Source: Candidatus Doudnabacteria bacterium (GTDB lineage: Bacteria; Patescibacteriota; Doudnabacteria; UBA920; O2-02-FULL-48-8). From it: a DNA stretch of 38,270 nucleotides. The stretch lies in assembly GCA_037200925.1 (NCBI GenBank), contig JBBCGO010000001.1, positions 139,552 to 177,821 on the forward strand, in the 5' to 3' direction. The translations under genes were made by a program, and so were the position numbers. Shown in pieces: positions 620 through 38,270 of this stretch. The notes under the pieces are model-generated. The model saw only the letters and a list, made by a program, of their open reading frames with translations. It made no database searches and was not told the DNA's origin. Numbering within the stretch: position 1 is the stretch's first letter; every line of letters starts with the position of its first letter.

Positions 620-1309
620 TGGAAATTAAGGATAAAGTTTTTATTTTGACGGGCGCCGCACGGATCGGCGTGGATGTGGCCAAGGAATTGACTGCGAGAG
701 GAGCAAAGTTTGACCCACGACATATCTTACCACCGAATCAGACGTCGGCGATCTGAAGATCAAAGCGGACGTATCCAAACCCGACGAAGTTGCAAGAGTG
801 GTTTCTGAAACTAAGGCAAAATTTGGCCGAATAGACGGACTGATCCACATGGCAGCGATCTACCAAAAGACCCCGTGGAAATCCTTGGCTGAAGCGGACT
901 GGAATAAAAATATGGATGTGATCGCAAAGAGCGCGTTTCTAATGTCCAAAGCTGCCGGCGACGAGATGACGATAGGCGAAGATCATTCTTATCTCAGACT
1001 GGTCAGTTTTGACCCAGCCGTACAAAGATTATTTACCGTACAACGTGGCAAAAAGCGCCATTGAAGGTTTAACTAAATCGCTGGCCAAAGAATTGGCGCC
1101 GAAAATTATGGTCAACTGCATAGCACCCCGGCCCTATTCTGAAACCGGCGGATCTTTCGGATGCGGATAACGCAGAGGTTTTAAAAAATACCCCTCTGGG
1201 AAAATGGGGCGGCGCTCATGAGATCACTAAAGCGGTCTTGTATCTTTTGGATTCGGATTTCGTCACCGGGCAAATTTTGTACGTTGACGGCGGACGGTCG
1301 ATAGCTTAA
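619..1309 (+). pseudogene. Short-chain dehydrogenase/reductase (pteridine reductase/FolM-like), broken by frameshifts (pseudogene or sequencing error)
   Basis: Manual reconstruction across three frame changes (~709-716, ~978, ~1126-1129): MEIKDKVFILTGAARIG...ADVSKPDEV...GRIDGLIHMAA...KIILISDW...YNVAK (YxxxK)...VNCIAPGPI...FVTGQILYVDGGRSIA*. ATG overlaps the upstream stop (TAATG). Confidence 0.8.
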
Positions 1310-2227
1310 ATAAATAATTTATTCCCAAGCCTAAGCCCGTTCAGGAAATCTTTTCCGGACATGGCTTTTTTCCTTCAGGCTGAAGTTCCCCCGATCAGCA
1401 TGCTCCCGTCAATGCATTTGACGGCGAGCTCTCCCGAATGAACATAAATTTTCCCGGGCAATTCTATTTTCGGCTCATTGATAATTTTTGCCGATAGAAT
1501 CTTTATGGTTTTTCCGTCCAGGGTAGTCCAGGTTCCGGGCTCAGGGGTTTAAGGCCCGGATCTTTTGATCGATCTCTTTGACCGAAGTGGTCCAATCGAT
1601 CCTGCCCGTCAGAATGATTTAGCAGTTTTGTATAGGGTTGCCTGCGCATGAATTTGCTCCGCGGTTTTGATCTTCCCTGCGAACCAGTCAGGCAGAGTAT
1701 TGCTGACCAAGTCAGCAGCGGCGGCGAGGCTTAATTGGCTTATATAAACCGGTAAAAGTTTCATTGCCTTTAAGCCTAAGAACACTTTTGGCAATGATCT
1801 GACCGTGGTCCATCTTTTCATCCATCCTAATCAGCGTGATGCCTGTTTCATTATCGCCGTTCAATATCACAGCTTGGATGGGCGAAGCGCCCCGGTATTT
1901 CGGCAAAAGGGACCCGTGGATGTTGATCGAGCCAAACTTAGGGATGTCCAGGACTTCTTTGGGAATTATTTGGCCGTAGGCTGCAACCAGCAGAAGGTCA
2001 GGCGCCAGATCTTTGATCCGCGGAAGATCATCCAGGATTTTCGCAGGTTGAACTACCGGTATCTTATTTTTTTCCGCCCAGAGCTTGATCGGCGGGGGAG
2101 TCATAATCTGCTTTCGACCTACAGGTTTATCCGGCTGAGTTATGATCAGAACAAGCTCATGATCTTTTTTGAGCATTTCTAACGTAGGAATTCCAAACTC
2201 CGTTGTGCCTGCGAATATTATTTTCAC
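1306..2227 (-). pseudogene. fmt: Methionyl-tRNA formyltransferase; 3' half broken by six frameshifts (pseudogene or sequencing error)
   Basis: N-terminal half intact (FAGTTEFG, TQPDKPVGR, AAYGQI, NIHGSLLPKYRGASPIQ, MDHG). C-terminal half reconstructs as ...YTKLL...IDW...IRALNPEPGTWT...ELQPEGKK.M...FLNG across shifts near 1737, 1636, 1601, 1545, 1390 and 1365. Stop overlaps the SDR stop (TTAA). Confidence 0.85.
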
Positions 2228-19354: not shown

Positions 19355-20456
19355 TTAAACCTTAGCATTTCTGTTTTTCTCCAAGTATTGCTTCACAAAT
19401 TCGGAAAGATCGCCTTCAAGCACCGATTCGGCATCCGAAGTCTCATAATTTGTGCGGTGATCTTTGACTAGCTTATAGGGATGCAGAACGTATGAGCGGA
19501 TCTGGTTTCCCCACTCGGCGCTGTGGAATTCACCGCGGATCTGGAGCTTTTCTTCCTGCTGCCGCTGTTCTTCGAGCTGCGCCAGTTTGGCAGTCAGGAT
19601 CTTCAGGGCCTGTTCTTTGTTCTGGGTCTGGGACCGTTCGTTTTGGATGGTCACAGTCAGGCCTGTGGGTTTGTGCGTGGCGCGGATGGCGGAATAAGTA
19701 GTGTTCACTGATTGCCCGCCGTGGCCGCGCGAGGTTTTGGCCTCTATTTCGATATCATCCATGTTCATTTTAAACTCGCCTTGCTCAATGATCGGCAAAA
19801 CTTCAACCAAAGCAAAAGATGTTTCTCTGGTATGCGTAGAATTGAACGGCGATTGCCGGACCAGGCGATGCACGCCGGCCTCGCTTTTAAAATAGCCGTA
19901 AGCGAACGGGCCGGAAATTTCCACAACAACACTTTTGATCCCGGCTTCAGCTCCGCGGCTTTCGTCGATGACCGCGGCCTTAAAATTATTTTTTTCCGCG
20001 AAGCGCAAAAACATGCGCAGCAGCATCTCGGCCCAATCCTGGGCATCCACACCGCCGGCGCCCGCATGGATGGAGAGTATCGCGTCATGATTATCGTATT
20101 TTGCCGAAAGAAAGGTGGTCAGCCGGATTTGTTCGTACAAAGCCTTTAAAAGCTTAAATTTTGACTTTAAATCTGTCTCCAGAGCCTTATCCGTCTCTTT
20201 GACCGCCTCAGACGCAAAGGCCTCTAAATCGTGAATTTCCTGCTCAAATTTAAACCAGTCCTCAATTTGCTTTTTTAAGCTGGAAAGCTGTTTGGACTTG
20301 GCTTTGGCCGCGTTTTGGTCTGACCAGAACCCAGGATCAGACATTGCTTCTTCAAGTTCTAGGATCTTTTGTTTTTTTTGAGGCAGGTCAAAGATGCTCC
20401 TTCAGATCGAGCATCTGTTTTTTTAAACTTTTAATTTCTCTGAGAAGTTCTTCCAT
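19355..20456 (-). CDS. prfB: Peptide chain release factor 2, with +1 programmed ribosomal frameshift
   Basis: Frame 0 MEELLREIKSLKKQMLDLKEHL ends at CTT TGA C (20393-20387); the +1 frame continues DLPQKK...GVHRLVRQSPF (SPF) and SRGHGGQSVN (GGQ); 366 aa. Confidence 0.95.
20387..20402 (-). promoter_or_regulatory. prfB frameshift cassette (AAGGAG-CAT-CTT-TGA-C)
   Basis: Internal Shine-Dalgarno-like AAGGAG 3 nt before the slippery CTT TGA C, matching the canonical RF2 autoregulatory site. Confidence 0.92.
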
Positions 20457-21112
20457 ATGATTGTTTTAAGCTCCTTAAGGTTATGGATCAGGAAATCCGG
20501 CTTTGCTGCCTTAAGTCTCGCTGTGCTTTGGTAGCCTTGGGTCAATGCAACCGTAGTATAGCCGAATTTTCGCCCAATTTCTATTTCTTCAGTAGTATCT
20601 CCGACTGTCAAAACCTCACGCGGACGCAAACGCAAACCCTGAACATATCGACGAAGTTTTTCCGCTTTGCCTTGAGCCGTCATATGCGAAGAATCAGCAA
20701 TTGAGCTTCTGGCCAAAATTCCGTCAAAATATCCGTCGATATGCAGCCGTCTGGCCTGCTTTTGTATGTGAGGAACGATGTGATTGCTGAAAATTATACT
20801 TTTGATCTTTTGTGACCGCAACCATGCCAATATGCCCCGAGTGCCTGACCTTGTGCGGCAAAAAGCTTCCCGCGGTTCATAATGCTTTTGGAACACTAAA
20901 TGGATTTCGTGAGATTTAGCATTAAATACTTTTGGATCAAATCCCGCTTTGATCCAATACGTTTTGATCGGGATGTCATATTGGTCTTGGAACTCTTTGA
21001 GGTTCGTTGCCTGTAACCCAAAGTGCAAACGGGTCGCGCTTTCGGCGCGAACCACTGCATTCGTGTCTGATAAGATCGTGCCGTTCCAGTCAAAAGCAAC
21101 TAATTTGATCAT
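20423..21112 (-). CDS. HAD superfamily hydrolase (phosphatase)
   Basis: Motif I variant FDWNGT, IFSN, motif IV VGDTTEEI, PDFLI. Confidence 0.88.
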   Translation of the reverse strand: MIKLVAFDWNGTILSDTNAVVRAESATRLHFGLQATNLKEFQDQYDIPIKTYWIKAGFDPKVFNAKSHEIHLVFQKHYEPREAFCRTRSGTRGILAWLRSQKIKSIIFSNHIVPHIQKQARRLHIDGYFDGILARSSIADSSHMTAQGKAEKLRRYVQGLRLRPREVLTVGDTTEEIEIGRKFGYTTVALTQGYQSTARLKAAKPDFLIHNLKELKTIIWKNFSEKLKV

Positions 21113-21114
21113 AT

Positions 21115-21699
21115 TTATTTCCCGGCATTCGGGTCAGTCAGCCATTTGTTCATTTTCATATGCCATTGATTTGGATCTGAGGTTTGAATTTCATCCCAGA
21201 GTTTTTTTGCCGATTCAGTATATAGTTTTTCTTCCCGCACAAACTTTCTGTTCTCTTTCCATTTTCCGGGAAGCTTGGACCCCATCTCGTCGATCTCCTT
21301 TAGTTCCAGATCGATATCCAAATTATCTGCATCCTTTACGATCTTAGCCTCGATGGAATCCCTTTTTTCATAGTCCTCGATAATTTTCCGAAAATCCTGA
21401 ACTATCGTTCCGGCAAACATATCATCAGCCGCCCTATGTTCGTCGGCTTTGACGTAGACTTTTTGCACATAACTTAGATCCGATGTCCTGGTTTCTGCCA
21501 CATCATGCACGAGGGCCATTTTAATGATCGTATTTTCATCGCCTTTTTTCTCCATCCGTGAAATGATCAGCGCCAGCCAAATGAGGCGATAAGTATGCTC
21601 AAGATCGGAAGCCACGTCAAAACCCAAGTGCTGACGCCAGCCTCTCGGGACGTTCCGCAGGGACCCGATCTCGTATAAAAAATCTATATCCCGGTTCAT
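21115..21699 (-). CDS. HD domain hydrolase (YfbR/HDDC2-like 5'-deoxynucleotidase family)
   Basis: LRNVPRGW, LEHTYR, ALVHDVAE.RTSD, KIVKDADNLD. Confidence 0.88.
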   Translation of the reverse strand: MNRDIDFLYEIGSLRNVPRGWRQHLGFDVASDLEHTYRLIWLALIISRMEKKGDENTIIKMALVHDVAETRTSDLSYVQKVYVKADEHRAADDMFAGTIVQDFRKIIEDYEKRDSIEAKIVKDADNLDIDLELKEIDEMGSKLPGKWKENRKFVREEKLYTESAKKLWDEIQTSDPNQWHMKMNKWLTDPNAGK

Positions 21700-21700
21700 A

Positions 21701-22183
21701 TTATTTTATTCTTTCATAGGTTGTCCATGAAAATTCCTTATGCGGCTTTTCAGAAACCTTCTTCCATTTGGCCGGATCGATCTCGGGAAACAGAACATCG
21801 CCGTCAATTTCTCTATGGATGTGCGTAATAATTAATTTATCGGCCTGATCGATCAGTTGAGCGTAGATCTGTCCTCCGCCCGTCACCATCACTTCGTCCT
21901 CAGCCTGCAGATTCTCAAGCGCATCTTCCACACTGCTGTAAACCTCAACTCCATCCGGTACCTGCCAGTCGGTATGCCTGCTGATCACGACATTCTTCCG
22001 GCCTGGCAGAGGCTTGCCTAATTTTTGCATGATCGAATCAAAGGTATTCCGTCCCATCAGGCAGGTCTTGCCTATAGTGACATCCTTAAAATGCTTCAAG
22101 TCTTCCGGAATGTACCAAGGCATAGAGTTCTGGCTGCCGATCACGCCATTTTTGGCCACCGCGGCAACGAGTGTTAGTCTCAT
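21701..22183 (-). CDS. folA: Dihydrofolate reductase
   Basis: NGVIG.QNSMPWYIPEDLKHFK, MGRNTF, PLPGRKNVVISR, GGGQIY, GDVLFP. Confidence 0.96.
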   Translation of the reverse strand: MRLTLVAAVAKNGVIGSQNSMPWYIPEDLKHFKDVTIGKTCLMGRNTFDSIMQKLGKPLPGRKNVVISRHTDWQVPDGVEVYSSVEDALENLQAEDEVMVTGGGQIYAQLIDQADKLIITHIHREIDGDVLFPEIDPAKWKKVSEKPHKEFSWTTYERIK

Positions 22184-22599
22184 GGGTTTAAAAACTTAAT
22201 TGCGGCATCTATTGCCTCTTTAACGTTCACCACTAAAGTCATTTCTTTTAGCTGATCTATAGGTACCCACTCGGGTATTGTTTCTTCAGAAGATTTTAAT
22301 TCTCCCTGGTACTGTTTCACTAGAAAAAATCTTATAGAATATTCTACTTTGCCCTCTTTTCGGTCAAGCTCTGCAACGTAAAAATTATTTTCAAATTCTT
22401 CGAGACTATCTTCTGTTGTGTTTAAACCAGTTTCTTCTTTGAGTTCTCTTAACGCTGCTTGTTTTTCATTTTCATCTTCTTCAAGTCTACCCGCTGGTGC
22501 TCCGTATATTTCGTGAGCGTAACCAGACTTTTCAGTATTTTTTACTAGCAATACTTTATCGCCTGCCAACACAATCATGCCAACAGAATGTTTGCTCAT
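22180..22599 (-). CDS. NUDIX hydrolase
   Basis: Nudix box GRLEEDENEKQAALRELKEETGL. Confidence 0.92.
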   Translation of the reverse strand: MSKHSVGMIVLAGDKVLLVKNTEKSGYAHEIYGAPAGRLEEDENEKQAALRELKEETGLNTTEDSLEEFENNFYVAELDRKEGKVEYSIRFFLVKQYQGELKSSEETIPEWVPIDQLKEMTLVVNVKEAIDAAIKFLNP

Positions 22600-23540
22600 T
22601 GCTTTTCAAAAAATCCGCCGGATACGCTTAACTCAGCTTTCAAGCCCGGATGAGGGTCATAATCAACAAGTTTAACAAGTTCCGGTTTGAAGTCATCAAT
22701 GTTTTTGACGGACGGGTCCAGTTCGATCTTTGGGAACGGTTTCGGCTCGCGCTTGAGCTGTTCTTTGACCGGCTCAAGGTGCTTTTCGTAAATATGAAAA
22801 TCTCCGAGCGTATGCACAAATTCTCCAGGCTCGTATCCGGTTACTCTCGATAAAATAATTGTGAGCAAGGCATAACTTGCGATATTGAACGGCACACCCA
22901 AGAACATATCCGCGCTTCTCTGATAAAGTTGCAAGTTCAATTTGCCCTTGATCAGATCGATCTGATACATATTGTGGCAGATCGGAAAACGAGACGCGTC
23001 CTCGTATGCGGCCATGGAATAAAGATATTCCGGGTTCCACGAATTCACTATCAAATTATGCGCGTTCGGATCGTCCTTGAGTTCTTGGATCGCCCAGGCC
23101 AACTGATCGATCGTACGTCCCGGCGTTCTCGTGGGCCAGCGGCGCCACATTTCGCCGTAGATTCTCGGCAATTCTCCGTGCTCTTTTGCAAATGCATCGT
23201 CATCGATCATTTTTTGGACAAATTCTTCTTTCGTCAGGCCGGGATTTTTTTTATTGTAAATTTTATAAGGATAATCGTCCCAGATATGAACGCCTTTTCG
23301 CGTCAGATACGAGACATTGCTTTGGCCGGATATGAACCAATACAACTCTTCGACCACGCCCTTCCAAAAAACTTTTTTTGTAGTCAGCATGGGAAAACCC
23401 ATGGAGAGATCAAAACGCATCTGCGCGCCGAACAAGCTGAAAGACGCATCGCCCGTCCCGCGGTCGACCTTCCTGTCTCCTTTTTCCAGGATTTGTTTGA
23501 GCAAATCCAGATATTGATATTCCGGGTGTCTGTTTTCCAT
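22596..23540 (-). CDS. thyA: Thymidylate synthase
   Basis: DRGTG, FPMLTTKKV, HIWD, ICH (catalytic Cys), YQRSADMFLGVPFNIASY, GDFHIYEKH. Confidence 0.96.
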   Translation of the reverse strand: MENRHPEYQYLDLLKQILEKGDRKVDRGTGDASFSLFGAQMRFDLSMGFPMLTTKKVFWKGVVEELYWFISGQSNVSYLTRKGVHIWDDYPYKIYNKKNPGLTKEEFVQKMIDDDAFAKEHGELPRIYGEMWRRWPTRTPGRTIDQLAWAIQELKDDPNAHNLIVNSWNPEYLYSMAAYEDASRFPICHNMYQIDLIKGKLNLQLYQRSADMFLGVPFNIASYALLTIILSRVTGYEPGEFVHTLGDFHIYEKHLEPVKEQLKREPKPFPKIELDPSVKNIDDFKPELVKLVDYDPHPGLKAELSVSGGFFEKQ

Positions 23541-23542
23541 AC

Positions 23543-24226
23543 TTATTCAATATTAAATGTTTTGTCAGTTCCGTAATAATCCTGCCAATGTTTGTTGTAG
23601 TAGTCAAACATCCGCGCCAGGCGCGCTTGATTCAGTTCTTGTAAGCCAAGCTCTTCGATAATTTCCCTTATCTTGGCTTTTGTCACGTCCGCTTTGGCTG
23701 CATCATCAATTACTGATTCGAATTCGGCCAGATAGCCGTAGCCTGCGTTTTTATCGACCGTAACACTCAATCCTTTATATTTATATTCTTCCCGCTCGCG
23801 CGACCATTTGGCCTGATATTCAAAACCGCAATCAACTAAAATCTGATCAAGCTCGTCAAGGGTCAAATATACTCCTGATTCAAATTCTTGCCGGGCCGTA
23901 CCATTGCTTGAGGTCGTATCATCTATAGCTACTTTGATCACAAAGATGACTTTTCCGTCAGCTGAGCGCGTTCTTACGGAAAATTCTTTAAAGTCTTCTG
24001 CGTGAGCCAGCAGATCATCAAATTCTTGCTGTTTGTCAGCCATAAGATGCGGTTCCAATTTGCTGCGGAGCACCATAAGGTTGCCCTTTACGAAATAATG
24101 GTTGAGCTGGTTATGTTTGCCGGCAAAAAACAAGGCAGGATCGGACTGCTTCATTTTTTCAACAAGCGCCTGGGCCTGAAGTTTTCCGCCGACCAGGCTT
24201 TTAATTTCTATTTCATAATTTACCAT
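23543..24226 (-). CDS. CYTH domain protein (triphosphate tunnel metalloenzyme)
   Basis: N-terminal YEIEIK (ExExK), VRTR, RQEFE, KWSREREEY, VTVD....YGYLAEFE. Confidence 0.8.
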   Translation of the reverse strand: MVNYEIEIKSLVGGKLQAQALVEKMKQSDPALFFAGKHNQLNHYFVKGNLMVLRSKLEPHLMADKQQEFDDLLAHAEDFKEFSVRTRSADGKVIFVIKVAIDDTTSSNGTARQEFESGVYLTLDELDQILVDCGFEYQAKWSREREEYKYKGLSVTVDKNAGYGYLAEFESVIDDAAKADVTKAKIREIIEELGLQELNQARLARMFDYYNKHWQDYYGTDKTFNIE

Positions 24227-24899
24227 GGAGATATTTTTTTACGATCGGATAAATTTTGTCGCTGACTTCCGCTGGGGTCAGTAATCTTCCGTCCACAAAG
24301 CTTTCAACCAATTTATAACCGAATTTTTTGGCGATATGGAGGTAGATGCTTTCTGCGATGATCAAATGCTTGGTATCTTTTTCGTGAATGTCCATGCGTT
24401 TGGCTCCTAAGTAATGCCTGGGCCCGCGCTGCCTGATCAGTTTCATGGATACTTTCGGCGGGAGATGCAAGATTATCTCCAGGTCAGGCTTCGGGATCTT
24501 CATGAAATTGTATTCAAAATCAGCAAGCCACTTGAAATATTTTTCACGCTGTATCGGACTTTTTATCTTGCCGCCCTGGTGGGCCATGTTTGCCGTGACA
24601 TACCGGTTGGAGATTACAACGTACCCTTCCGACAAATGCTTTTTGATCCTTCGCGATGCGGCAAAACGGTCAACCGCGTAGAATATCGACGGGATATATG
24701 CACCCAGTTCTTCCGCAGAACCGTATTGCCCGGTCAGGTAATCTTCAACCGGTCCGGCAGATTTTTGACCATATTGCGGGAAATCTTCAATTTTGACCTT
24801 GACTCCGGTTTTTTCCAGGCGCTTGACCAAAAGTTTGGTCTGCGTGGCTTTGCCCGAGCCGTCCGTGCCGTCTATGACAATGAATTTGCCTTTTTTCAT
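24213..24899 (-). CDS. tmk: Thymidylate kinase
   Basis: FIVIDGTDGSGKATQ, FPQY, YAVDRF, NRYVTANMAHQG, PKPDL. Confidence 0.93.
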   Translation of the reverse strand: MKKGKFIVIDGTDGSGKATQTKLLVKRLEKTGVKVKIEDFPQYGQKSAGPVEDYLTGQYGSAEELGAYIPSIFYAVDRFAASRRIKKHLSEGYVVISNRYVTANMAHQGGKIKSPIQREKYFKWLADFEYNFMKIPKPDLEIILHLPPKVSMKLIRQRGPRHYLGAKRMDIHEKDTKHLIIAESIYLHIAKKFGYKLVESFVDGRLLTPAEVSDKIYPIVKKYLHGKL

Positions 24900-25594
24900 T
24901 AGATTTTTACTCCTGCTATTAAGCCGCGGTCCAATTGCAAATGCAGCCAGCCTGTTTTAAAACCTGCTTCATTCATCCAATGCATTTCGTCTTCCAAAGA
25001 GGCTGGATAGTCTTCTTTGGTGCTGATTTGCTCTTTATATTTATCAAAGGTCTTATTACTTTTCAATTTTGCCTGACGCTCCTGCCAGTTCCATGCGCCT
25101 TTGTAAATCTTGAACATCGGCTCCGCGTCAATCTTGAACCGGTCTAGAAGAAAATACATACCTCCCGGTTCCAATGCATCGGAGACAAATTTAAAAATCT
25201 GTTTCTTTTTTTCATGAGCAAGTTCATGCAGGACCTGGCAAGTGATTGCAAATTGGTACTTATTTTCCGGCAGAACCAGGGAATTTATCTCTTCCAGGTT
25301 ATGTTTGATCATGGTCACCTGCGACAAAAAAGGTTCAAGGCGTTTTTTGGCTTTTTCGATCATTGCATCCGAAGAGTCAACGCCAACTATTTCCGCATGA
25401 GGGATTTTTTTCAGAATAAGGTCTTCGACCTGACCCGTGCCAAAGCCCAGATCTAAAATTTTATTACCTCTCTCGTAGTTATCAACAATTATTGAAGTCA
25501 TCAGGTCCAGCTGGGCCAGGCGTGATGGATTTCCTTTGTGGGTGTCTGTATCCCAGTCCGTCGCAAATTCCTGATGGTGCCAATTATCTTTCAT
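24899..25594 (-). CDS. Class I SAM-dependent methyltransferase
   Basis: ILDLGFGTG, VGVDSSDAMI, VLHEL...ALEPGG; coupled to dcd and tmk by TAATG overlaps. Confidence 0.88.
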   Translation of the reverse strand: MKDNWHHQEFATDWDTDTHKGNPSRLAQLDLMTSIIVDNYERGNKILDLGFGTGQVEDLILKKIPHAEIVGVDSSDAMIEKAKKRLEPFLSQVTMIKHNLEEINSLVLPENKYQFAITCQVLHELAHEKKKQIFKFVSDALEPGGMYFLLDRFKIDAEPMFKIYKGAWNWQERQAKLKSNKTFDKYKEQISTKEDYPASLEDEMHWMNEAGFKTGWLHLQLDRGLIAGVKI

Positions 25595-26160
25595 TATAGT
25601 CCTCCCAAAACGCTTCCGACTGTTTTATTCTGATGTTTATACTTGGAACTTTCACGGTCCGCGTATGCTTGAGAAACTTCAGAGCTGATCTGTTCAAAAA
25701 GAAGCTGGCAAATTCTCATCCGGGGATGAAGCACGATCGGCACCGTTCCGATATTAGTGATTTCTAAAACCAGATTTCCTTTAAAACCCGGGTCAACCTT
25801 TCCGGCGGTAGAATGAATGACCAACCCGAGTCTTCCTAATGAGGACTTCCCTTCTAATCTGCCGGACAGAGTGTTCGGCAATTCAATTTTTTCATAGGTC
25901 GACCCTAGTACGAAGTCTCTGGGCCGAATTACCAGCGTATCATTATCAGATATCGTGATTTGTTCTTCCAAACCTTCCGGGATCTTTTTATCTACGGCAT
26001 CAATAAATGAATGCGAAGAACTTCTGTACAATATAAATTCATTTCCCAGCGTTAGATCAATAGACACTGTGCCAAGCACTTCTGCCAAGTTTGGCACCGG
26101 GTTTATTTTGATTTCTTGACTTTCCAGCTTAGCTTTTATGTCTTTGTCGGAGAGGATCAT
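25594..26160 (-). CDS. dcd: dCTP deaminase
   Basis: MILSDKDI, SIDLTLG, EGKSSLGRLGL, AGKVDPGFKG.LVLE, RICQL, SKY. Confidence 0.95.
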   Translation of the reverse strand: MILSDKDIKAKLESQEIKINPVPNLAEVLGTVSIDLTLGNEFILYRSSSHSFIDAVDKKIPEGLEEQITISDNDTLVIRPRDFVLGSTYEKIELPNTLSGRLEGKSSLGRLGLVIHSTAGKVDPGFKGNLVLEITNIGTVPIVLHPRMRICQLLFEQISSEVSQAYADRESSKYKHQNKTVGSVLGGL

Positions 26161-29484: not shown

Positions 29485-29982
29485 CTAATCAATCTTTAAA
29501 GCGCAATCTATAAAATTAGGATCAACAGCATCAGCCACTCCCGCACCACAAGAACCAGAAGGTTCAACGCGGTAATTAAGATAAGCTCCGGTAACACCAG
29601 AGACGGTGGCAGGGTTAAGGTATAAATATCCGCCTGAACCTCTGTTTCCTTCCGGAGGATCCTGAGGCTTAAGCGGTAAACTTGGAGCCAAAAAAGCGTC
29701 CACAGTCGCATCTGCTGAATATCCGGACCAAGCGCCATCACAAGTCGCACTTACACAAACCCAAGTACCAGTGGTAGGCAACGGATTATTATCACTTAAG
29801 CTTAAATTAAATGCTTTTACCAAGAGCTCAATATCTGCCAGTCTTCTTGCGTTTCGAGCTTTTACGCGTGCATTGCCAAGATAAACCAATACAATGGTAG
29901 CCAAAAGACCGATGATCGCAATTACTACCAAAAGTTCAATTAAGGTAAATCCTTTTGTTTTTAAGCTAGGTTTCTCCGTCAC
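29485..29982 (-). CDS. Type IV pilin / type II secretion pseudopilin (copy 2)
   Basis: [18 protein letters not shown] prepilin motif, [11 protein letters not shown], four Cys; GTG start. Confidence 0.92.
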   Translation of the reverse strand: MTEKPSLKTKGFTLIELLVVIAIIGLLATIVLVYLGNARVKARNARRLADIELLVKAFNLSLSDNNPLPTTGTWVCVSATCDGAWSGYSADATVDAFLAPSLPLKPQDPPEGNRGSGGYLYLNPATVSGVTGAYLNYRVEPSGSCGAGVADAVDPNFIDCALKID

Positions 29983-30012: not shown

Positions 30013-30507
30013 CTAATCAATTTTAATTTCACACCAAACATAATCTGAAGTAGAGGAAGAAACAAACCCCGAACCGCAAGAACCGGAAGGTTCGATCAAA
30101 TATTGAAGAAAGGCTCCGGTTAATCCGGAAAAAGTAACTGGATTTATATATAAATATCCGCCATTGCCTCTAGTGCCTCCGACCGGATCTGAAGGCTTTA
30201 GGGTCAAGCTGGGTGCCAAAAAAGCATCTACCCCTGGATCTGCGGCAAATCCTGACCAGCCTTCGTAACACGTTGCGCTGACGCAGACGTTTGCCCCACC
30301 GGTGTCAGGCAGCGGACCGCCGTTATTTTGGCTTAAATTAAATGCCTTTTCCAATGTCTCAATATCCGCAAGCCTCCTTGCATTCCTCGCCTTTACGCGC
30401 GCATTGCCAAGAGCAACCAAAACAATTGTAGCCAAAAGACCGATGATCGCAATTACTACCAAAAGTTCAATTAAGGTAAATCCTTTGTTTGTTTTTGTTT
30501 TTCGCAT
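30013..30507 (-). CDS. Type IV pilin / type II secretion pseudopilin (copy 1)
   Basis: Same prepilin motif and Cys pattern; tandem paralog of 29485-29982. Confidence 0.92.
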
Positions 30508-30517
30508 AACTCTTTTT

Positions 30518-32571
<2,054 letters not shown>

Positions 32572-32596
32572 TATAATAGGCCTTTTTAGAAGCGCT

Positions 32597-34915
32597 TTAA
32601 TCCCTTATTTCAGCATGGAATTTGGATTTCAGTTCATTCAATATTTCTTTATGAATTTTGGTTACTTCCTCATCTTTCAGGGTTCGGTTATCGGCTTGGT
32701 AAACAATCCGGAAACCCAGGCTTTTTTTGCCGGGCGAAACATTTTTGCCCTGGTAAACATCAAACAAAGTTGCCGATTTTATCAGCTGCTTGTTTGATTT
32801 TAGGATCAGCTCTTTAATTTCTCCCCAAGGCAAGTCTTCGCGCACCAAGATCGCCGCATCCAACTCCTCTGCCGGATACTTGCTTGGAGGCACGAACTGC
32901 TTGGGTTTGATATGCTTGATCAATTTTTCAAAATTAAGTTCAGCCGCGGCCCATTTCAATTCCTCATTCACGGCACGGATCGGGCCCAATTTTTCGCCGT
33001 CGGCCGAAACTTCGCCCATCTCTTCGTCAACCTGCGCTATCGACATTTCTACTCCCAACCGCCCGAACAGCTCCCTGATGCTGCCGATCAGTTTGCCGGC
33101 CGGCTGCCGAGTTTTAGAAAAACAGATCAAGAACAAATTAGTATGTTCCTCCACGCTGCCGTTGGTCTTGCGATAAACATTCCCGATCTCGAACAGGCTT
33201 TCTTCGGAAACGTACCTGCCATTCTGCCCGATCAGCCGTTCGTAATTCATACCCAGACCCTGCCGCAAATACTGCTGATCCGAACTCATGGGGTTGGCGA
33301 TCTCCACGGCCTGCTTGCGGTCGATGCCGTATTTATCAAAAATACTTTCAGGAACAAATGAATATGTATACGCTTCATTAAATCCCATACCCGTCAAAAG
33401 ATCGGCAACACGTTCGTGCTCATCCACGATCTGATCGGTCATACCGGATGAATTCGGCAACGGAGCAAGAGCGTCAGGGATCTTATCCAAACCCTCGAAT
33501 CGGACAATTTCTTCAGCCAGGTCCTCCCAGATCCGCACGTCAGGCCGCCAGAAGGGAACCGTAACTTGTAACGTGGAATGTGAAGCCTGTAACGCAAAGC
33601 CAAATCGCTTCAAGATCCTTTCCTGCTCACTGACGGAAATATCAGTGCCTAAAAGAGCGTTGACTTTTTTGGCATCAACTTTAACTGTAATCGGTTTTTC
33701 CTTTTTTATGCCGGCCTCGGCGTATTCCAGCGGTTTTGCGGATGCATATTTGACCAGCAACTCAACGGCATATTCAGCCGCAGCCATTGCCAAGCCCACC
33801 GGCAATGATTTTTCAAAACGGCTTGAAGCATCAGTGCGGAGCCCCAAATTTCTTGCAGTTCTTCTTATGGAGACGCTATTGAAATTGGCTGCTTCCAGAA
33901 TAACTTCACCGGTAAAATCGATGACCGCACTTTCCGCGCCGCCCATAACGCCGGCGATGGCTAAGGGTTTTTTCGCATCCGCAATAACCAGCATATTGGT
34001 GGTCAATTTCCGTTCCACACCGTCAAGCGTTTTTAGGCTCTCATTAAGGTAAGCCTTACGGACATTGATCGGGCCGGTAACCATGGTTGCGTCAAAAGCA
34101 TGCAAGGGCTGGCCTATTTCCAGCATGACATAGTTGGTAATATCCACCACGTTGTTTATCGGCCGCATTCCTGAAAGTTTCAACCGGTCTTGGATGAATT
34201 TCGGGGACTCTTTGATCTTTATATTTACCAAACGCACGCCGATATATTTACTGCAAAGAGCCGGGTCCGATATCCGAACTTTCAAGACTTTGGACGGTAA
34301 ATTGGCCAGTTTTGATTTTTTATTCTTTATTTTATACTTGGCGCCGGTCAGAGCGCTGATCTCCCACGCCACGCCCCGATACGAAATAAGGTCCGGGCGG
34401 TTTGCCGGCACTGAAACGTCAAGCATCGGCTCGCTGGAACTATTTTTTATTGCAAACGGTTCTCCAAGCTTACTGCCGGAATCCAGGAGCAAAATCCCGC
34501 CGCCGTCTGCGCCCAGACCCAATTCTTTCGCCGAGCAGATCATGCCCTGCGACTCAACCCCGCGGATAATTGCTTTTGACAGCGTAAAAGGCTTTCCGTC
34601 CGGATCATGCTGATCATGGGGAATGATACCGCCCGGCAAGGCCAAAGGAACTGTAGCGCCAACATCAAAATTCCATGCGCCGCAAACCACCGGCCCGAAC
34701 GTATTCCTGCCGTCAGTTAAAGTGATTATCCGCAAACGGTCCGCATTCGGATGTTTTTCTATTTTTGTTACTTTGGCGACTATGATCCCTGAAAATACTT
34801 TTTGATCTGCATCCGCTTCCGTTTCAAACGCATGCAATGACAAAAACTCAGCCAGTTTATCAGGCGATAATCTAATATCAACTAATTCTTTAAGCCATGA
34901 GTAGGCAAACTTCAT
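32597..34915 (-). CDS. pheT: Phenylalanine--tRNA ligase beta subunit
   Basis: KHPNADRL, RGVESQGMICS..ELG, NRPDLIS.RG, RPINNVVDITNYVMLE.GQPLHAFD, RTDASSRFEK, FDVYQG...GKKSL.FRI.YQ..RTL. Confidence 0.97.
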   Translation of the reverse strand: MKFAYSWLKELVDIRLSPDKLAEFLSLHAFETEADADQKVFSGIIVAKVTKIEKHPNADRLRIITLTDGRNTFGPVVCGAWNFDVGATVPLALPGGIIPHDQHDPDGKPFTLSKAIIRGVESQGMICSAKELGLGADGGGILLLDSGSKLGEPFAIKNSSSEPMLDVSVPANRPDLISYRGVAWEISALTGAKYKIKNKKSKLANLPSKVLKVRISDPALCSKYIGVRLVNIKIKESPKFIQDRLKLSGMRPINNVVDITNYVMLEIGQPLHAFDATMVTGPINVRKAYLNESLKTLDGVERKLTTNMLVIADAKKPLAIAGVMGGAESAVIDFTGEVILEAANFNSVSIRRTARNLGLRTDASSRFEKSLPVGLAMAAAEYAVELLVKYASAKPLEYAEAGIKKEKPITVKVDAKKVNALLGTDISVSEQERILKRFGFALQASHSTLQVTVPFWRPDVRIWEDLAEEIVRFEGLDKIPDALAPLPNSSGMTDQIVDEHERVADLLTGMGFNEAYTYSFVPESIFDKYGIDRKQAVEIANPMSSDQQYLRQGLGMNYERLIGQNGRYVSEESLFEIGNVYRKTNGSVEEHTNLFLICFSKTRQPAGKLIGSIRELFGRLGVEMSIAQVDEEMGEVSADGEKLGPIRAVNEELKWAAAELNFEKLIKHIKPKQFVPPSKYPAEELDAAILVREDLPWGEIKELILKSNKQLIKSATLFDVYQGKNVSPGKKSLGFRIVYQADNRTLKDEEVTKIHKEILNELKSKFHAEIRD

Positions 34916-36111
34916 TTAGTGAGCACGAAGCTGGAGAGCAGATGAATAAATATTGGATCGTTCACGTCGGTGGAAAGCGTCGTACCTTGTCGGGCACTGA
35001 TTTCATAAACTTTTCCCGAACTGTAAACGTAACTGGCCAAGCCGCTTCTCAGCGTATACGCTGTTTGGCCGTTAATCAGTATTTTTGTGTAATTGTTCAA
35101 GCTTGGATCCTCGCTTAATCCACTAGAATTCTCGATCCATGCTTCAATTGAAGTTTGGGTAACATTTAGATAAACCCTGACCACATATGTAACAGTGCTG
35201 TTTGCAAAAGTGACAGCATCAATATTAGGGGAAGCGCTTGAGGGGTATTGGATCGATTGAGCGGGAAGAAGCGTTAAACTTTGGGCCGGATACTCGAACG
35301 TATATCCGATCGAAGAATTGGTATATGTCTTCCAGGCAGTCGTTTGAGCGGGACTCTGCGTTGATAACGTTGTGATGGTCGGCTCATGCAGGCTGTATTT
35401 AGCTGTATCGCTGGCGATCTGCTGGTTGCGGACGTCGGTAAATTTCAGGCCGGGTGTCAGCGGATCATATCCGCTATTGATCTGAAATCCGTCTGTCCAA
35501 TCGTTTTGCGCTACGATGTCCCGCCTATCCGTATATTTCAACGTCGGCTCTGTCTTGTAAATATTGACCTCGTCGCCGTCAGCCAGCCCATCCGAGTCGC
35601 TGTCGGCGGTTACAGGATTGGTGCCTGCCACAAATTCATTGTAATTGCTCAGCCCATCATTGTCAGGATCCGCATCATCGCCGCAAACGGTTTGATTATC
35701 GCAGACCTCTTTATTGAAGTACTGATTCAGCCAGACCTTGGGTAATTTAGTGGTAACAGCCGTAACTACAGGCGCGGCGGTCTTTTTTGCGCCCAGCAGG
35801 AAGTAGGCAAGCAATCCCAAAACTATCAGCACGACAATCCCAACAACTATGTAAATCCACTTGCTCCGAAAGAAAGACGGTTCAGATTCTTCAGGCATAA
35901 GATTAGGCGAACCATATTCCGGCGGCGGCGGGACGGAGGGCACTGAAGCCGGCCTTGACGGCAAGGGCGAAGGGGCAATAGAAGATCTGACGGGAGCCGG
36001 AACGGGCGGCTGAACAGCCGGATCAAAGCGCCCTTCCTGCGGCATGACCTGAAAGGAAAGATCGGATGGTTCGACCGGCAAATTAGCTGGAGTTGGTTTT
36101 TGAGGGTCCAT
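34912..36111 (-). CDS. Membrane-anchored surface protein with Ca-binding (thrombospondin type-3-like) repeats and PsbP-like C-terminal domain
   Basis: Pro-rich N-terminus, one TM, DPDNDGLSN..E...GTNP..ADSDSDGLADGDE repeats, WKTYTN...YTFEYP. Confidence 0.8.
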   Translation of the reverse strand: MDPQKPTPANLPVEPSDLSFQVMPQEGRFDPAVQPPVPAPVRSSIAPSPLPSRPASVPSVPPPPEYGSPNLMPEESEPSFFRSKWIYIVVGIVVLIVLGLLAYFLLGAKKTAAPVVTAVTTKLPKVWLNQYFNKEVCDNQTVCGDDADPDNDGLSNYNEFVAGTNPVTADSDSDGLADGDEVNIYKTEPTLKYTDRRDIVAQNDWTDGFQINSGYDPLTPGLKFTDVRNQQIASDTAKYSLHEPTITTLSTQSPAQTTAWKTYTNSSIGYTFEYPAQSLTLLPAQSIQYPSSASPNIDAVTFANSTVTYVVRVYLNVTQTSIEAWIENSSGLSEDPSLNNYTKILINGQTAYTLRSGLASYVYSSGKVYEISARQGTTLSTDVNDPIFIHLLSSFVLTK

Positions 36112-36148
36112 ATTTATTTTTTAATTTTAATTAATTATTAATATTATT

Positions 36149-37159
36149 TTAAAACTGATTTAAAAAACGAACATCATTCTGGTAAAACATCCGGATGTCG
36201 GGAATGTTGTATTTCAGCATAGCAATTCTCAATGTTCCTAATCCAAAAGCAAATCCGCTATATTTGTCTTTTGGGTAGCCAGCATATTTAAACACTTTAG
36301 GGTGGACCATCCCAGAACCCAAAACTTCAAGCCAGCCGGATTGACTGCAAATTGAACAGCCTTTTTGGTTGCAAAAAATACAACTCATCAAAACCTCAAT
36401 ACTCGGTTCAGTGAAAGGAAAATATGACGGACGGAACTGGACTTTAATCCGATCGCCAAATAAGGACTTAAATAATCGCGTTAATGTGCCTTTCAAATCT
36501 GCTACGCTAATTTTTTCTCCAACAACCAAGCCTTCAACCTGATAAAAAGTATGTTCGTGCCGGGCGTCAGTTGCCTCATTGCGGAAAGTCCTACCGGGTA
36601 TTATAACAGAAAAAGGCGGTTTGCGGTTTTCCATGATGCGCGCCTGCATCGGGCTGGTATGGGTGCGCAACAGCAATTTACTGTCCTTTAAATAGAAAGT
36701 ATCAAACATATCCCGTGCAGGATGGTCACTCGGAATATTCAACGCTTCAAAATTATAATAATCGGTTTCGATCTCGTCACCCAACATCACGCCGAATCCC
36801 ATAGACTTAAAAATATTCACAATCTCTCGTTGAGTCTGGGTGATCGGATGCAAATGGCCCAAGGACGGCTTCTCGCCGTCAATTGTCAGGTCAATAAACT
36901 CCTTCTTGCCGGAATTCTTAATGCTGCGGCGCTTTTGATCGATCAGGCGCCAGATCTCGATCTTAACTTCGTTGGCATCTTTGCCTAAAGATTTGCGCTG
37001 ACGCTCATCAAGGTTTTTTAAGGAACGCAAAATATTCGTAAGTTTGCCCTGTTTCCTTCCAAAATACTTAACAACCAGCTCATCAAGACCGGCCAGATCT
37101 TTTACCGGCCCGAGCTCCTGGATCGCCTGGTCGTGAAGTTGCTTAAGACTTTCTATCAT
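36149..37159 (-). CDS. pheS: Phenylalanine--tRNA ligase alpha subunit
   Basis: GHLHPITQ, HPARDMFDTFY, LRTHTSPMQ, FYQVEG, RPSYFPFTEPS, LEVLGSGMVHP, GFAFG. Confidence 0.97.
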   Translation of the reverse strand: MIESLKQLHDQAIQELGPVKDLAGLDELVVKYFGRKQGKLTNILRSLKNLDERQRKSLGKDANEVKIEIWRLIDQKRRSIKNSGKKEFIDLTIDGEKPSLGHLHPITQTQREIVNIFKSMGFGVMLGDEIETDYYNFEALNIPSDHPARDMFDTFYLKDSKLLLRTHTSPMQARIMENRKPPFSVIIPGRTFRNEATDARHEHTFYQVEGLVVGEKISVADLKGTLTRLFKSLFGDRIKVQFRPSYFPFTEPSIEVLMSCIFCNQKGCSICSQSGWLEVLGSGMVHPKVFKYAGYPKDKYSGFAFGLGTLRIAMLKYNIPDIRMFYQNDVRFLNQF

Positions 37160-37523
37160 TTTTAGTCAATAAATAAGATTCCAAAAAAACCAGCGTTAGG
37201 ACAAGCAATCCGCCGGAAAGCCAGCTGAATAAACCGCGGCTTAGCAGAAAAAGAGAAAGCACTAAAAGTATCGTAAACCACAATCCCTGCCTGGCGGCTT
37301 GCGTCAAATAGCGGTTCAGCAGTTCCCTTTGGCCGAGGCTCCTTCGGAGGAAGAATCCGGCTAGCGTTATTAAGGAAAAAATAAAACCCGCGAACAAAAA
37401 ATAAAACAGAATTATATTGCCTGTCCGGTCGGGTCCCAGAGATCTTATCAGTACTATGAGCCCCGTTCCAAAACCCAGGCCGGCAATAATTAAGCCCAAA
37501 ATAGATAGTTTGATTTTCTGCAA
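37143..37523 (-). CDS. Hypothetical membrane protein (4 TM)
   Basis: TTG start, four hydrophobic segments, overlaps the pheS start by 17 nt. Confidence 0.75.
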   Translation of the reverse strand: MQKIKLSILGLIIAGLGFGTGLIVLIRSLGPDRTGNIILFYFLFAGFIFSLITLAGFFLRRSLGQRELLNRYLTQAARQGLWFTILLVLSLFLLSRGLFSWLSGGLLVLTLVFLESYLLTKNDRKS

Positions 37524-37547
37524 TTTTTTATGTCCGAGTAAGTTTAA

Positions 37548-37576
37548 TTATGCCAGTTTTAGCAATTTAATGCAAA
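37548..37576 (-). promoter_or_regulatory. Sigma70 promoter TTGCAT-N17-CATAAT for the pheS/pheT operon
   Basis: Minus strand ttgcat-taaattgctaaaactgg-cataat with extended TG. Confidence 0.55.
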
Positions 37577-37583
37577 ACTACCC

Positions 37584-37749
37584 CTCCAAATGCCTAAATT
37601 TACGTTCGCGCCTTATGGCGCTCACCTTGGGCAGCGCCGGAAGCTACCGCACTCGCTTCCGTCGACGCTCGACGCAGGCTTAGGCCTCGTCTCGCTTCTG
37701 CCCGTGTAAATTCAGGCCACAATATTACTCTCCAAATGCCTAAATTTAC
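37584..37749. repeat. Perfect 20-bp direct repeat CTCCAAATGCCTAAATTTAC (37584-37603 and 37730-37749)
   Basis: Read directly from the sequence; copies separated by 126 bp. Confidence 0.95.
37604..37729. mobile_element. Putative non-autonomous structured insertion (MITE/REP-like) with 20-bp target duplication
   Basis: About 60% GC by hand count, multi-branched hairpins, flanked by the 20-bp direct repeat; no transposase in the window. Confidence 0.5.
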
Positions 37750-38270
37750 ACTCATGCGACTTTTCCATGTCTTTTTCCATAAAACCGTCGGTTTTTATGG
37801 TTTCCACGATCTCTTCAATTGATTCCAACAGCTTTACTTTAAGTTTTTCAATATCTTCTTTCGTTCCAAGGAATTTCAAGGGATCATCCAGCGCTTTAAA
37901 ATACCAATAACTTAAGCTGTTGATCTTCTCCTTGAATCCTTCTTCGGCAGCCCATTGATAGATCAGAAGCTGGTCGCGGTCGACCTGTTCAAGTTTAACC
38001 CTGGGTTCGCCGGTTTTATAATCAATGATATCGATCGAACCGTCAGAATTCGCGTCAGCGCGGTCAATGCGGCCTTTGAACTTATATTCCCCCAGTTTCA
38101 GCCGGAACGATTGTTCCAAATATTTTGGGAGCTTTGGGTCATTACAGAATTTTTCGTAAAATTTATCAAGATATTTAAGGCCATCGGCGCGGTAGGCCTG
38201 CTTGTTGATCTTATCCGGATACCAATCATCCACCCAGGATTCGCTGTAAAACCTGACCAATGTTTCTTTT
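37712..38270 (-). CDS. PD-(D/E)XK nuclease domain, probably the C-terminus of a UvrD/AddA-like helicase-nuclease; 5'-truncated by the window edge
   Basis: LEQSFRL...FKGRIDRAD....IDIIDYKTG, QLLIY (RecB-like); frame open to the window end. Confidence 0.85.
   Translation of the reverse strand, partial: KETLVRFYSESWVDDWYPDKINKQAYRADGLKYLDKFYEKFCNDPKLPKYLEQSFRLKLGEYKFKGRIDRADANSDGSIDIIDYKTGEPRVKLEQVDRDQLLIYQWAAEEGFKEKINSLSYWYFKALDDPLKFLGTKEDIEKLKVKLLESIEEIVETIKTDGFMEKDMEKSHECKFRHLESNIVA

What the first reader, a model, noticed from the sequence alone, without database searches (positions are those of the whole stretch)
37578..37751. 126-bp structured insertion with a 20-bp target duplication that rewrites a gene's C-terminus
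The distal repeat copy still encodes KFRHLEG-stop (TAG at 37580-37578), while the gene now reads KFRHLE-SNIVA-stop into the insert, so the element landed in the last codons and duplicated them. The insert is about 60% GC and folds into GCGCC/GGCGC (37608-37621) plus a three-way junction: GGGCAG/CTGCCC (37629-37703), CGGAAGC/GCTTCCG (37638-37661), GACG-AGGC/GCCT-CGTC (37671-37691), with a tandem TCGACGC. A 20-bp duplication is longer than typical DDE transposase duplications and fits integrase-type core duplication or an RNA-templated insertion. No mobilising enzyme is in the window.
Basis: partly seen in the sequence, partly recalled or inferred. Interest (0 to 1): 0.7.

Follow-up and report, generated by a model that had tools for sequence, protein, structure and literature searches.

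The report
Orphan 146-bp insertion rewriting a gene end
A Patescibacteria helicase-nuclease gene has taken up 126 bp of foreign, tightly folding, GC-rich DNA in its last codons, with a 20-bp duplication, but no second copy or mobilising enzyme was found, so it is a real one-off insertion and not a demonstrated mobile element.

Summary
An exact 20-nt direct repeat (37584-37603 and 37730-37749) brackets 126 nt of 60% GC DNA in a 46% GC window. The gene now ends KFRHLE-SNIVA-stop, and the old end KFRHLEG-stop survives downstream, just before the next operon's promoter. Four relatives have the empty site, and eight close homologues end 0-3 residues after HLE. An independent assembly is 100% identical across the locus, so it is a real, lineage-specific insertion. 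New here: the insert carries a 14-nt inverted copy of the target (0 of 3000 shuffles). The anatomy is therefore target, 12-nt linker, inverted target, folded 100-nt body, target. The mobile-element reading is not established. No other copy was found in about 55 kb of the same genome, in single-pattern scans of species genomes and metagenomes, in five viral scans, in phages or plasmids, or in six-frame protein searches. There is no Rfam family and no recombinase, transposase or reverse transcriptase nearby. My best reading (0.35) is integration of a tiny enzyme-less circle, or a remnant of a larger element, by att-core recombination. The main rival (0.3) is a one-off template-switch or repair insertion. 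Interest is modest.

The parts
37712..38270 (-). 3' part of the host gene. It encodes the PD-(D/E)XK nuclease domain of a 988-aa UvrD-helicase/nuclease fusion and runs off the window end.
   Evidence: Pfam PF12705, E 4e-16. The full gene is L004 6482-9448, with UvrD-helicase, UvrD_C and PDDEXK_1 domains.
37730..37749 (-). Proximal copy of the 20-nt repeat (sense GTAAATTTAGGCATTTGGAG). It is now the in-frame codons (C)KFRHLE of the gene.
37738..37751 (-). Gene-end arm (sense GTGTAAATTTAGGC) of a 14-bp hairpin formed with the insert. It extends 2 nt beyond the repeat.
   Evidence: Inverted pair I4. All 14 positions pair in sense RNA with one G.U; z -5.1.
37718..37729 (-). 12-nt AT-rich linker (sense AGTAATATTGTG). 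It supplies the new codons S-N-I-V.
37704..37717 (-). Inverted copy of the target inside the insert (sense GCCTGAATTTACAC). It contains the new stop TGA at 37714-37712.
   Evidence: I4, I11. 0 of 3000 shuffles give a comparable match.
37629..37703 (.). 75-nt GC-rich three-way junction: closing stem GGGCAG/CTGCCC, one arm with a tetraloop, and one arm with a 7-bp stem and 10-nt loop.
   Evidence: Same fold on both strands; z -2.8 and -3.0; MFE frequency 0.48-0.62.
37604..37628 (.). Small hairpin GCGCC-(4 nt)-GGCGC (37608-37621) with its flanks, at the distal end of the insert.
37584..37603 (-). Distal copy of the 20-nt repeat: the stranded original gene end.
37578..37583 (-). Ancestral last codon and stop (GGG TAG, Gly-stop). 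No longer translated.
   Evidence: It matches the empty-site relative L034, which ends ...GAA GGT TAA.
37547..37576 (-). Promoter-like site (TTTGCA, 18 nt, TG-n-CATAAT) for the downstream membrane-protein/pheS operon. The insertion leaves it intact.
   Evidence: A matching TGGTATAAT element sits just after the stop codon in relatives.

Best explanation
This is the footprint of one integration event by a very small element with no enzyme of its own, or the remnant of a larger one. I propose that it entered by conservative, att-core type recombination and not by staggered-cut transposition.

The incoming molecule, a circle of 146 nt or bp, carried three things:
- its own copy of the 20-bp stretch that encodes the conserved KFRHLE end of the UvrD-helicase/PD-(D/E)XK nuclease gene;
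- 12 nt further on, a 14-nt inverted copy of the same target, so that one strand folds into a hairpin resembling the duplex target;
- a compact 100-nt GC-rich body made of a three-way junction and a small hairpin.

A crossover anywhere inside the 20-bp identity gives exactly what is seen: target, linker, inverted target, body, target. The gene now reads from its own KFRHLE codons into the element (SNIVA-stop). The old Gly-stop and the next operon's promoter are displaced 146 bp downstream, unchanged. The recombinase would have to act in trans.

Shown: the insertion, the duplication, the inverted copy, the fold, the empty sites in relatives, the intact promoter, and the reality of the sequence.

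Inferred: the circular intermediate, the recombination mechanism, any mobility, and any role for the fold.
For: - Insertion polarity. Four relatives lack the 146-nt block and end at HLE plus 0-3 residues, followed directly by the TGGTATAAT promoter. A fifth relative (the P0001 contig) has the same gene order with only an 82-nt gap. The eight closest homologues have short tails, and none of the 57 hits carries a SNIVA tail.
- Recent event. The two 20-mers are identical.
- Foreign, evolved-looking body. It is 60% GC overall against 46% for the window, with the 100-nt body at about 68% (and the sequence). It has one dominant fold with z about -3.6.
- Target choice. The site lies in the last codons of a conserved housekeeping gene, in a motif conserved in the near clade. 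By established knowledge, integrase-borne elements typically choose such sites and duplicate 15-20+ bp cores there (SCC elements at rlmH, e14 at icd, tRNA-end islands).
- Anatomy. Target, loop, inverted target, body, target is what integration of a folded-hairpin substrate leaves at one junction. This is known for CTX-phage attP(+) and integron attC; attC features are described in PMC5027507.
- Parsimony. One recombination event explains everything, whereas a template-switch origin needs four switches.
- Not an artefact. Two assemblies agree, and a 20-nt repeat is shorter than the assemblers' k-mers.
Against: - No second copy was found anywhere searched. This covers the window, 8.9 kb beyond it on one side and 7.8 kb on the other. 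It also covers one 19-mer scan of 185,579 species genomes and one 18-mer scan of JGI metagenomes, which gave only chance seeds. Five IMG/VR patterns, phage and plasmid blastn and six-frame protein queries also found nothing.
- No recombinase, transposase, Cas1 or reverse transcriptase lies in about 55 kb.
- None of the relatives with a near-identical target carries the insert.
- The inverted arm pairs with 2 chromosomal nucleotides outside the repeat. A pre-formed circle does not predict this (1/16 by chance).
- A 14-bp stem is short for a complete tyrosine-recombinase site.
- GC-rich three-way junctions are not typical att arms.
Confidence: 0.35

Rival explanations
1. It is a one-off replication or repair accident and not a mobile element. 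A stalled or broken nascent strand switched templates several times (MMBIR/FoSTeS-like). It may also have captured a piece of imported foreign DNA. It copied 14 nt of the opposite local strand, then about 100 nt of a GC-rich template. It then resumed on the original template 20 nt upstream of where it left, which produced the duplication.
For: - It is a singleton everywhere searched.
- The inverted arm copies the chromosomal sequence, including 2 nt outside the repeat, as a local inverted switch would.
- No enzyme lies nearby.
- By general knowledge, CPR bacteria take up foreign DNA, so a GC-rich donor is plausible.
Against: - It needs four switches, including an unexplained 12-nt AT-rich piece.
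- The inverted copy differs at 1 of 14 positions, although the 40 nt of repeat are unmutated.
- No donor lies within 38 kb on one side or 9 kb on the other.
- The body has a single well-defined fold, unlike a random genomic or coding fragment, and it matches no protein in any frame.
Confidence: 0.3
2. It is a true target-site duplication made by staggered cuts 20 bp apart. On this reading it is a non-autonomous transposon moved in trans by a DDE transposase of a long-duplication type (IS1634- or IS1182-like) or by a Cas1-type integrase (casposase).
For: The flanking repeat is exact, with foreign DNA between the copies. By established knowledge, Cas1-family integrases and a few IS groups make duplications of 14 bp or more.
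Against: - The two ends of the insert share no terminal inverted repeat.
- No transposase or Cas1 lies in about 55 kb.
- No other copy was found.
- This reading does not explain the inverted copy of the target inside the element.
Confidence: 0.1
3. It is an RNA-level element. Either a structured RNA was reverse-transcribed into a staggered nick, or the insert is intron-like. In the intron-like case its 14-nt guide pairs with the upstream exon, and removal of any 146-nt register would restore KFRHLEG-stop.
For: On the sense strand all 14 hairpin positions pair, the one difference being a G.U that works only in RNA. The paired stretch has the length of a group II intron IBS1+IBS2 site, and the body is compact and structured. 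Because of the repeat, excision in any register restores the ancestral frame.
Against: - No Rfam intron, ribozyme or other family matches, even at E up to 10.
- 146 nt is far below any known self-splicing intron.
- No reverse transcriptase lies nearby, and there is no A-tail.
- The benefit of restoring one Gly codon is nil.
Confidence: 0.1
4. It is not an insertion. Either the block is a native 3'-UTR structure that the relatives lost, or it is an assembly artefact.
For: The closest relatives are only about 60-67% identical in protein, so polarity rests on parsimony. The NCBI assembly contains a run of length errors elsewhere, at window 711-1737.
Against: - Five relatives from different samples lack the block.
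- The stranded Gly-stop plus promoter matches their arrangement exactly.
- A loss could not leave a perfect 20-nt duplicate.
- Two assemblies are identical here with no gaps.
Confidence: 0.04

Closest known systems
Integrase-borne elements that insert into the 3' end of a conserved gene and duplicate the att core (SCC elements at rlmH/orfX, e14 at icd, tRNA-end genomic islands), and their enzyme-less remnants (CIME-type)
   Same: The target is the last codons of a conserved housekeeping gene. An exact direct repeat of about 20 bp flanks the foreign DNA. The reading frame is kept open with a slightly altered tail. The enzyme is not adjacent.
   Different: The cargo is only 126 bp, against kilobases. 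No integrase lies in about 55 kb. No attP partner or second integrated copy is known. The interior is a GC-rich three-way junction, not AT-rich arm sites.
Folded single-strand recombination substrates: integron attC sites and CTX-phage attP(+)
   Same: The element strand can fold into a hairpin that imitates the duplex target. After integration, one junction carries target, loop, inverted target, and a second target copy lies at the far end.
   Different: The canonical attC core sites are absent. The hairpin ends read GTGTAAA...TTTACAC, not RYYYAAC...GTTRRRY. I recognised no dif-like 28-bp site. The stem is only 14 bp. There is no integron integrase, cassette array or phage.
Bacterial MITEs and palindromic repeats (Correia, ERIC, RUP, REPIN, Rickettsia palindromic elements)
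   Same: Size of about 100-150 bp, strong secondary structure, no coding capacity, and tolerated inside or next to genes.
   Different: There are no terminal inverted repeats. The duplication is 20 bp, against the usual 2-10 bp. No second copy was found.
Casposons and Cas1-type integration
   Same: A long duplication (14 bp or more) and a preference for 3' ends of conserved genes.
   Different: There are no terminal inverted repeats, no Cas1 or polymerase, and the insert is about 100 times smaller.
Microhomology-mediated template-switch insertions (MMBIR/FoSTeS)
   Same: A short duplication combined with an inverted local copy and sequence of other origin, as a single event.
   Different: The foreign part is a well-folded 100-nt module of unknown source. 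The inverted copy is not exact although the duplication is.

Membership tests
MITE (non-autonomous DDE transposon) | Terminal inverted repeats at the two ends of the element | tested here: not met
   The insert ends (sense AGTAATATTGTG... and ...GGCGCGAAC) share no inverted repeat. The only inverted pairs involve the target copy.
MITE (non-autonomous DDE transposon) | Several to many copies per genome or lineage | tested here: inconclusive
   No copy was found in about 55 kb of the 964-kb contig or in any collection scan. About 94% of the genome could not be read.
MITE (non-autonomous DDE transposon) | Short target-site duplication (2-10 bp) | tested here: not met
   The duplication is 20 bp.
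Integron cassette / attC site | Inverted core sites R'' RYYYAAC and R' GTTRRRY closing the hairpin | tested here: not met
   The hairpin ends are GTGTAAA and TTTACAC on the + strand. Each matches 5 of 7 positions and lacks the G of GTT. The definition is taken from PMC5027507.
Integron cassette / attC site | Integron integrase and a cassette array nearby | tested here: not met
   Only housekeeping genes lie in the window and its flanks.
Integrase-type integrative element or its remnant | Identical direct repeats (att core) flanking foreign DNA at the 3' end of a conserved gene, with empty sites in relatives | tested here: met
Integrase-type integrative element or its remnant | Tyrosine or serine recombinase encoded by the element or the genome | tested here: inconclusive
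   None lies in the insert or in about 55 kb around it.
Integrase-type integrative element or its remnant | Free attP form, excision products, or other integrated copies | not testable with these tools
   This needs the reads or the full genome. The collection scans found nothing.
Xer-dependent IMEX | The target is a 28-bp dif-type site with XerC and XerD arms | not tested
   Inspected by eye only. The target is coding sequence with a TAAATTTA palindrome, and I recognised no dif-like organisation.
Casposon | Terminal inverted repeats and a Cas1 integrase | tested here: not met
   No TIR. No Cas1 among the Pfam hits.
Self-splicing introns, ribozymes and other known structured RNAs | A match to a curated covariance model | tested here: not met
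   Rfam gathering threshold: 0 hits in the window. At E up to 10, only miRNA-hairpin noise appears. No tRNA or tmRNA.
IS200/IS605-type palindrome-associated elements | Insertion without target duplication next to a short specific motif | tested here: not met
   A 20-bp duplication is present.

The most novel reading that the evidence does not exclude
The insert is the first seen member of a class of miniature integrative elements in Patescibacteria, with a unit of about 146 nt and no enzyme of their own. Such elements would carry both a copy and an inverted copy of their 20-bp target, acting as a self-made hairpin mimic or guide for the attachment site, together with a compact three-way-junction module. 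A host or helper recombinase would move them into the last codons of conserved genes. A less likely form of the same idea is that the insert behaves as a tiny intron-like RNA.
Probability: 0.15. Interest if true: 0.7.

Novelty: new variant of a known kind. Interest (0 to 1): 0.33.

Why it matters
As it stands, this is a clean, dated example of how a gene end and an operon boundary get rewritten in a reduced CPR genome without harm. The tail changes from G to SNIVA and the next promoter stays intact.

It would matter more if further copies exist. A 146-nt element that carries a mimic or guide of its own target would be an unusually small site-specific mobile unit. It would also be a possible handle for genetic work in Patescibacteria, where tools are scarce. 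The present evidence does not justify that claim.

Tried and rejected
**Searches for a second copy (all negative)**
- blastn-short against the window, L004 and L036/L037.
- A 19-mer against the species-genome collection gave 16 hits, all seeds of 29 nt or less in GC-rich genomes such as Nocardia.
- An 18-mer against metagenome contigs gave 13 hits, all seeds of 18-20 nt.
- Five 19-21-mers against IMG/VR gave one chance hit, L003, inside a GC-rich coding region.
- blastn against phage and plasmid collections found nothing.
- A chimeric query of all open frames of the insert against 5.8 billion proteins gave nothing at E up to 10.
- The 51-aa frame against 1.84 billion representatives gave one hit, P0059. 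It is a tandem-repeat protein scoring through 8 weak repeats and is spurious.
- An apparent 46-nt, 80% match in L015 dissolved on alignment.

**Known RNA families rejected**
- No Rfam family, tRNA or tmRNA matches.
- By eye there is no hammerhead core, and the sequence does not look like SRP RNA or 5S rRNA.

**Other readings rejected**
- Intrinsic terminator: none was predicted and there is no U-run.
- Donor from a phage-borne homologue of the nuclease: viral relatives are only 30-35% identical.
- An alternative element boundary at 37592-37717, with 12-bp inverted ends: it predicts an empty site that no homologue has.
- Translational bypass between the two repeat copies: rejected as unnecessary and unprecedented at 146 nt.

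**Attempts that failed**
- Walking further along the source contig.
- The 126-aa downstream gene and the left-end gene are not on record.

Full report
**1. What is there**

- An exact 20-nt direct repeat, CTCCAAATGCCTAAATTTAC, lies at 37584-37603 and 37730-37749, with 126 nt between the copies.
- The insert is 60.3% GC in a window of 46.4%. Its 100-bp GC peak of 0.68 is among the two highest in the window.
- ViennaRNA returns the same fold on both strands: a small hairpin plus a three-way junction.
- The 100-nt body (37604-37703) folds into one dominant structure, with MFE frequency 0.36-0.40 and z -3.6/-3.7. For the 75-nt junction alone the MFE frequency is 0.48-0.62.

**2. The host gene and the rewritten end**

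The minus-strand ORF 37712-38270 runs off the window and is a PD-(D/E)XK nuclease domain (PF12705). A contig that extends the window shows it is the C-terminus of a 988-aa UvrD-helicase/nuclease fusion (L004 6482-9448). The gene now ends ...HECKFRHLE-SNIVA-TGA. The distal repeat copy continues GGG TAG, which reads KFRHLEG-stop.

Directly after that old stop lies a promoter-like site, TTTGCA-18-TGgCATAAT at 37576-37547. It serves the downstream genes, a 126-aa membrane protein and pheS.

**3. Is it an insertion?**

Yes.
- The eight nearest homologues (45-67% identity) all end 0-3 residues after HLE, or after the equivalent motif. One ends RFRHLEG. None of the 57 hits has a SNIVA-like tail.
- DNA from four relatives shows the stop codon followed within about 10-40 nt by a TGGTATAAT promoter, with no 146-nt block: L034, L001, L002 and L035.
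- L034 is the nearest at DNA level. It reads AGATTTAGGCATTTGGAAGGTTAA, against the window's reconstructed empty site TAAATTTAGGCATTTGGAGGGGTAG.
- A fifth relative (the P0001 contig, no DNA available) keeps the same gene order with an 82-nt gap.

The parsimonious history is one gain of 146 nt (126 nt plus a second 20-mer) in the window's lineage. The event is recent enough that the two 20-mers are still identical.

**4. Is it real sequence?**

The window comes from NCBI assembly GCA_037975565.1, contig JBBCBH010000057.1, which is 964,444 bp long. The only paper in the library that contains the accession prefix JBBCBH is a PacBio HiFi study of deadwood metagenomes that recovered Patescibacteria MAGs (PMC11613949).

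A separate Logan assembly of run SRR28211699 is 100% identical, with no gaps, over window 30457-38270, including both repeats and the insert. The two assemblies are not copies of each other. Elsewhere (window 711-1737) they differ by 11 length differences, 13 gapped columns in all, and no substitutions. A 20-nt repeat is also too short to mislead a k=31 assembler. An artefact is therefore very unlikely.

**5.

Inside the insert, 37704-37717 (sense GCCTGAATTTACAC) is an inverted copy of the gene end at 37738-37751 (sense GTGTAAATTTAGGC) (pairs I4 and I11).
- On the sense strand all 14 positions pair, one as G.U (z -5.1).
- None of 3000 shuffled inserts gives a 13/14 inverted match to 80 nt of flank.
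- The arm covers 2 nt (GT) that lie outside the 20-nt repeat. It therefore fits the chromosomal copy (14 pairs) better than the distal copy (12 pairs).

In gene orientation the anatomy is: target(20), AGTAATATTGTG, inverted target(14), three-way junction(75), AAGGTGA-hairpin-GAAC(25), target(20), GGGTAG, promoter.

**6. Is it a mobile element?**

Not shown. No other copy was found in any of the following:
- the window;
- 8.9 kb beyond it on one side (L004) and 7.8 kb on the other (L036);
- 185,579 species-representative genomes, with one 19-mer (16 chance seeds in GC-rich genomes);
- JGI metagenome contigs, with one 18-mer (13 chance seeds);
- IMG/VR, with five patterns;
- phage and plasmid collections, by blastn;
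- called proteins, using all open frames of the insert and a word-free HMMER search (one spurious tandem-repeat protein).

A scan for the same anatomy, a repeat of 10 nt or more bracketing a GC-rich island, finds only this case in about 55 kb. Rfam gives nothing at gathering thresholds and only miRNA-hairpin noise at E up to 10. There are no tRNAs. The genes of the window and its flanks that match Pfam are all housekeeping, a few have no Pfam match, and none is a recombinase, transposase, Cas1 or reverse transcriptase.

Two limits apply. Exact-word scans miss copies that differ within the chosen word. About 94% of the source genome could not be read with these tools. 'Single copy' is therefore not established.

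**7. How it most likely arose**

I favour integration of a small circle, or a remnant of a larger element, by recombination within a shared 20-bp core (confidence 0.35). The reasons are:
- One event yields the whole anatomy.
- The site, the last codons of a conserved gene in a conserved motif, and the core length are typical of integrase-type elements (established knowledge: SCC at rlmH, e14 at icd, tRNA-end islands).
- Folded-hairpin substrates such as integron attC and CTX attP(+) leave target, loop, inverted target at one junction and a second target copy at the other (attC features in PMC5027507).
- The body looks like an evolved, foreign, structured module.

Evidence against:
- It is a singleton and no enzyme lies nearby.
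- None of the relatives is occupied.
- The hairpin has 2 extra pairs outside the core.
- The 14-bp stem is short for a recombinase site.

The main rival (0.3) is a one-off template-switch or repair insertion. It explains the singleton status and the 2 extra pairs. However, it needs four switches, an inexact inverted copy next to an exact duplication, and a donor that is nowhere nearby yet is neatly folded.

The remaining readings are weaker:
- Staggered-cut transposition (0.1) fails for lack of terminal inverted repeats.
- RNA-templated or intron-like readings (0.1) rest only on the G.U pair and the guide-like arm.
- Artefact or ancestral structure (0.04) is largely excluded.

**8. Comparison with known kinds**

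It works most like an att-core integrative element reduced to almost nothing. It resembles folded-hairpin recombination substrates in layout. It is not a member of the families whose defining features were tested:
- It is not a MITE: no TIR, and a 20-bp duplication.
- It is not an attC site: the core sites are wrong.
- It is not a casposon or an IS200/IS605-type element.
- It matches no Rfam family.

**9. Verdict**

The consequence for the protein is trivial (G becomes SNIVA) and the downstream promoter is intact. I score interest at 0.33. The anatomy is unusual enough to be worth a whole-genome and read-level check, but without a second copy it remains a curiosity.

Noticed in passing
L034 about 648-712 (relative, JGI 3300047409): The closest relative has the empty site. 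It carries a different GC-rich palindromic insertion of about 59 nt (...GCCCTCACCCCCGACCCCTCTCCCAGAGGCGGGAGAGAGG...) between the TGGTATAAT promoter and the start of the membrane-protein gene. The window lacks it. Small GC-rich folding inserts seem to recur in this intergenic neighbourhood.
   Followed up: partly
window 711-1737: The NCBI sequence differs from the Logan assembly (L037) by 11 length differences, mostly in G/C runs, and no substitutions. This explains the ORF-poor stretch at 620-1711 and the truncated fmt gene (171 aa against 304 aa). In Logan an adh_short gene of 228 aa is intact there. These are likely assembly length errors, not pseudogenes.
   Followed up: yes
L036 12710-20486 (beyond the window's left end): Several more genes are split or shortened in the NCBI contig compared with Logan: PBP 146+157 aa against 283 aa, acylphosphatase 57 against 78 aa, racemase 235 against 264 aa. 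The cause may be the same.
   Followed up: no
window 37712-38270 and homologues P0001-P0008: The near clade of this nuclease domain ends H-x-C-K/R-F/Y-R-H-L-E, with a single Cys. More distant homologues keep the C-x2-C-x5-C motif (for example CDFKDIC) typical of the iron-sulfur cluster of Cas4/AddB-like nucleases. The clade may have lost the cluster.
   Followed up: no
L004 6482-9448 versus L001 2534-5705: The helicase and nuclease form one 988-aa ORF in this genome. In relative L001 they are two genes of 800 aa and 234 aa.
   Followed up: no
window 29897-29955 and 30428-30486: A 59-nt exact direct repeat forms the 5' ends of two adjacent paralogous pilin-like genes (N_methyl motif, PF07963). 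This suggests recent duplication or gene conversion.
   Followed up: partly
window 37143-37523 (-): The 126-aa predicted membrane protein between the nuclease gene and pheS is not on record as a called gene in either assembly. Relatives have a called gene of 114-152 aa at the same place.
   Followed up: no
window 20423-26160 (-): A compact run of nucleotide-metabolism genes: HAD hydrolase, HD phosphohydrolase, DHFR, NUDIX, thymidylate synthase, CYTH, thymidylate kinase, a methyltransferase and dCTP deaminase.
   Followed up: no
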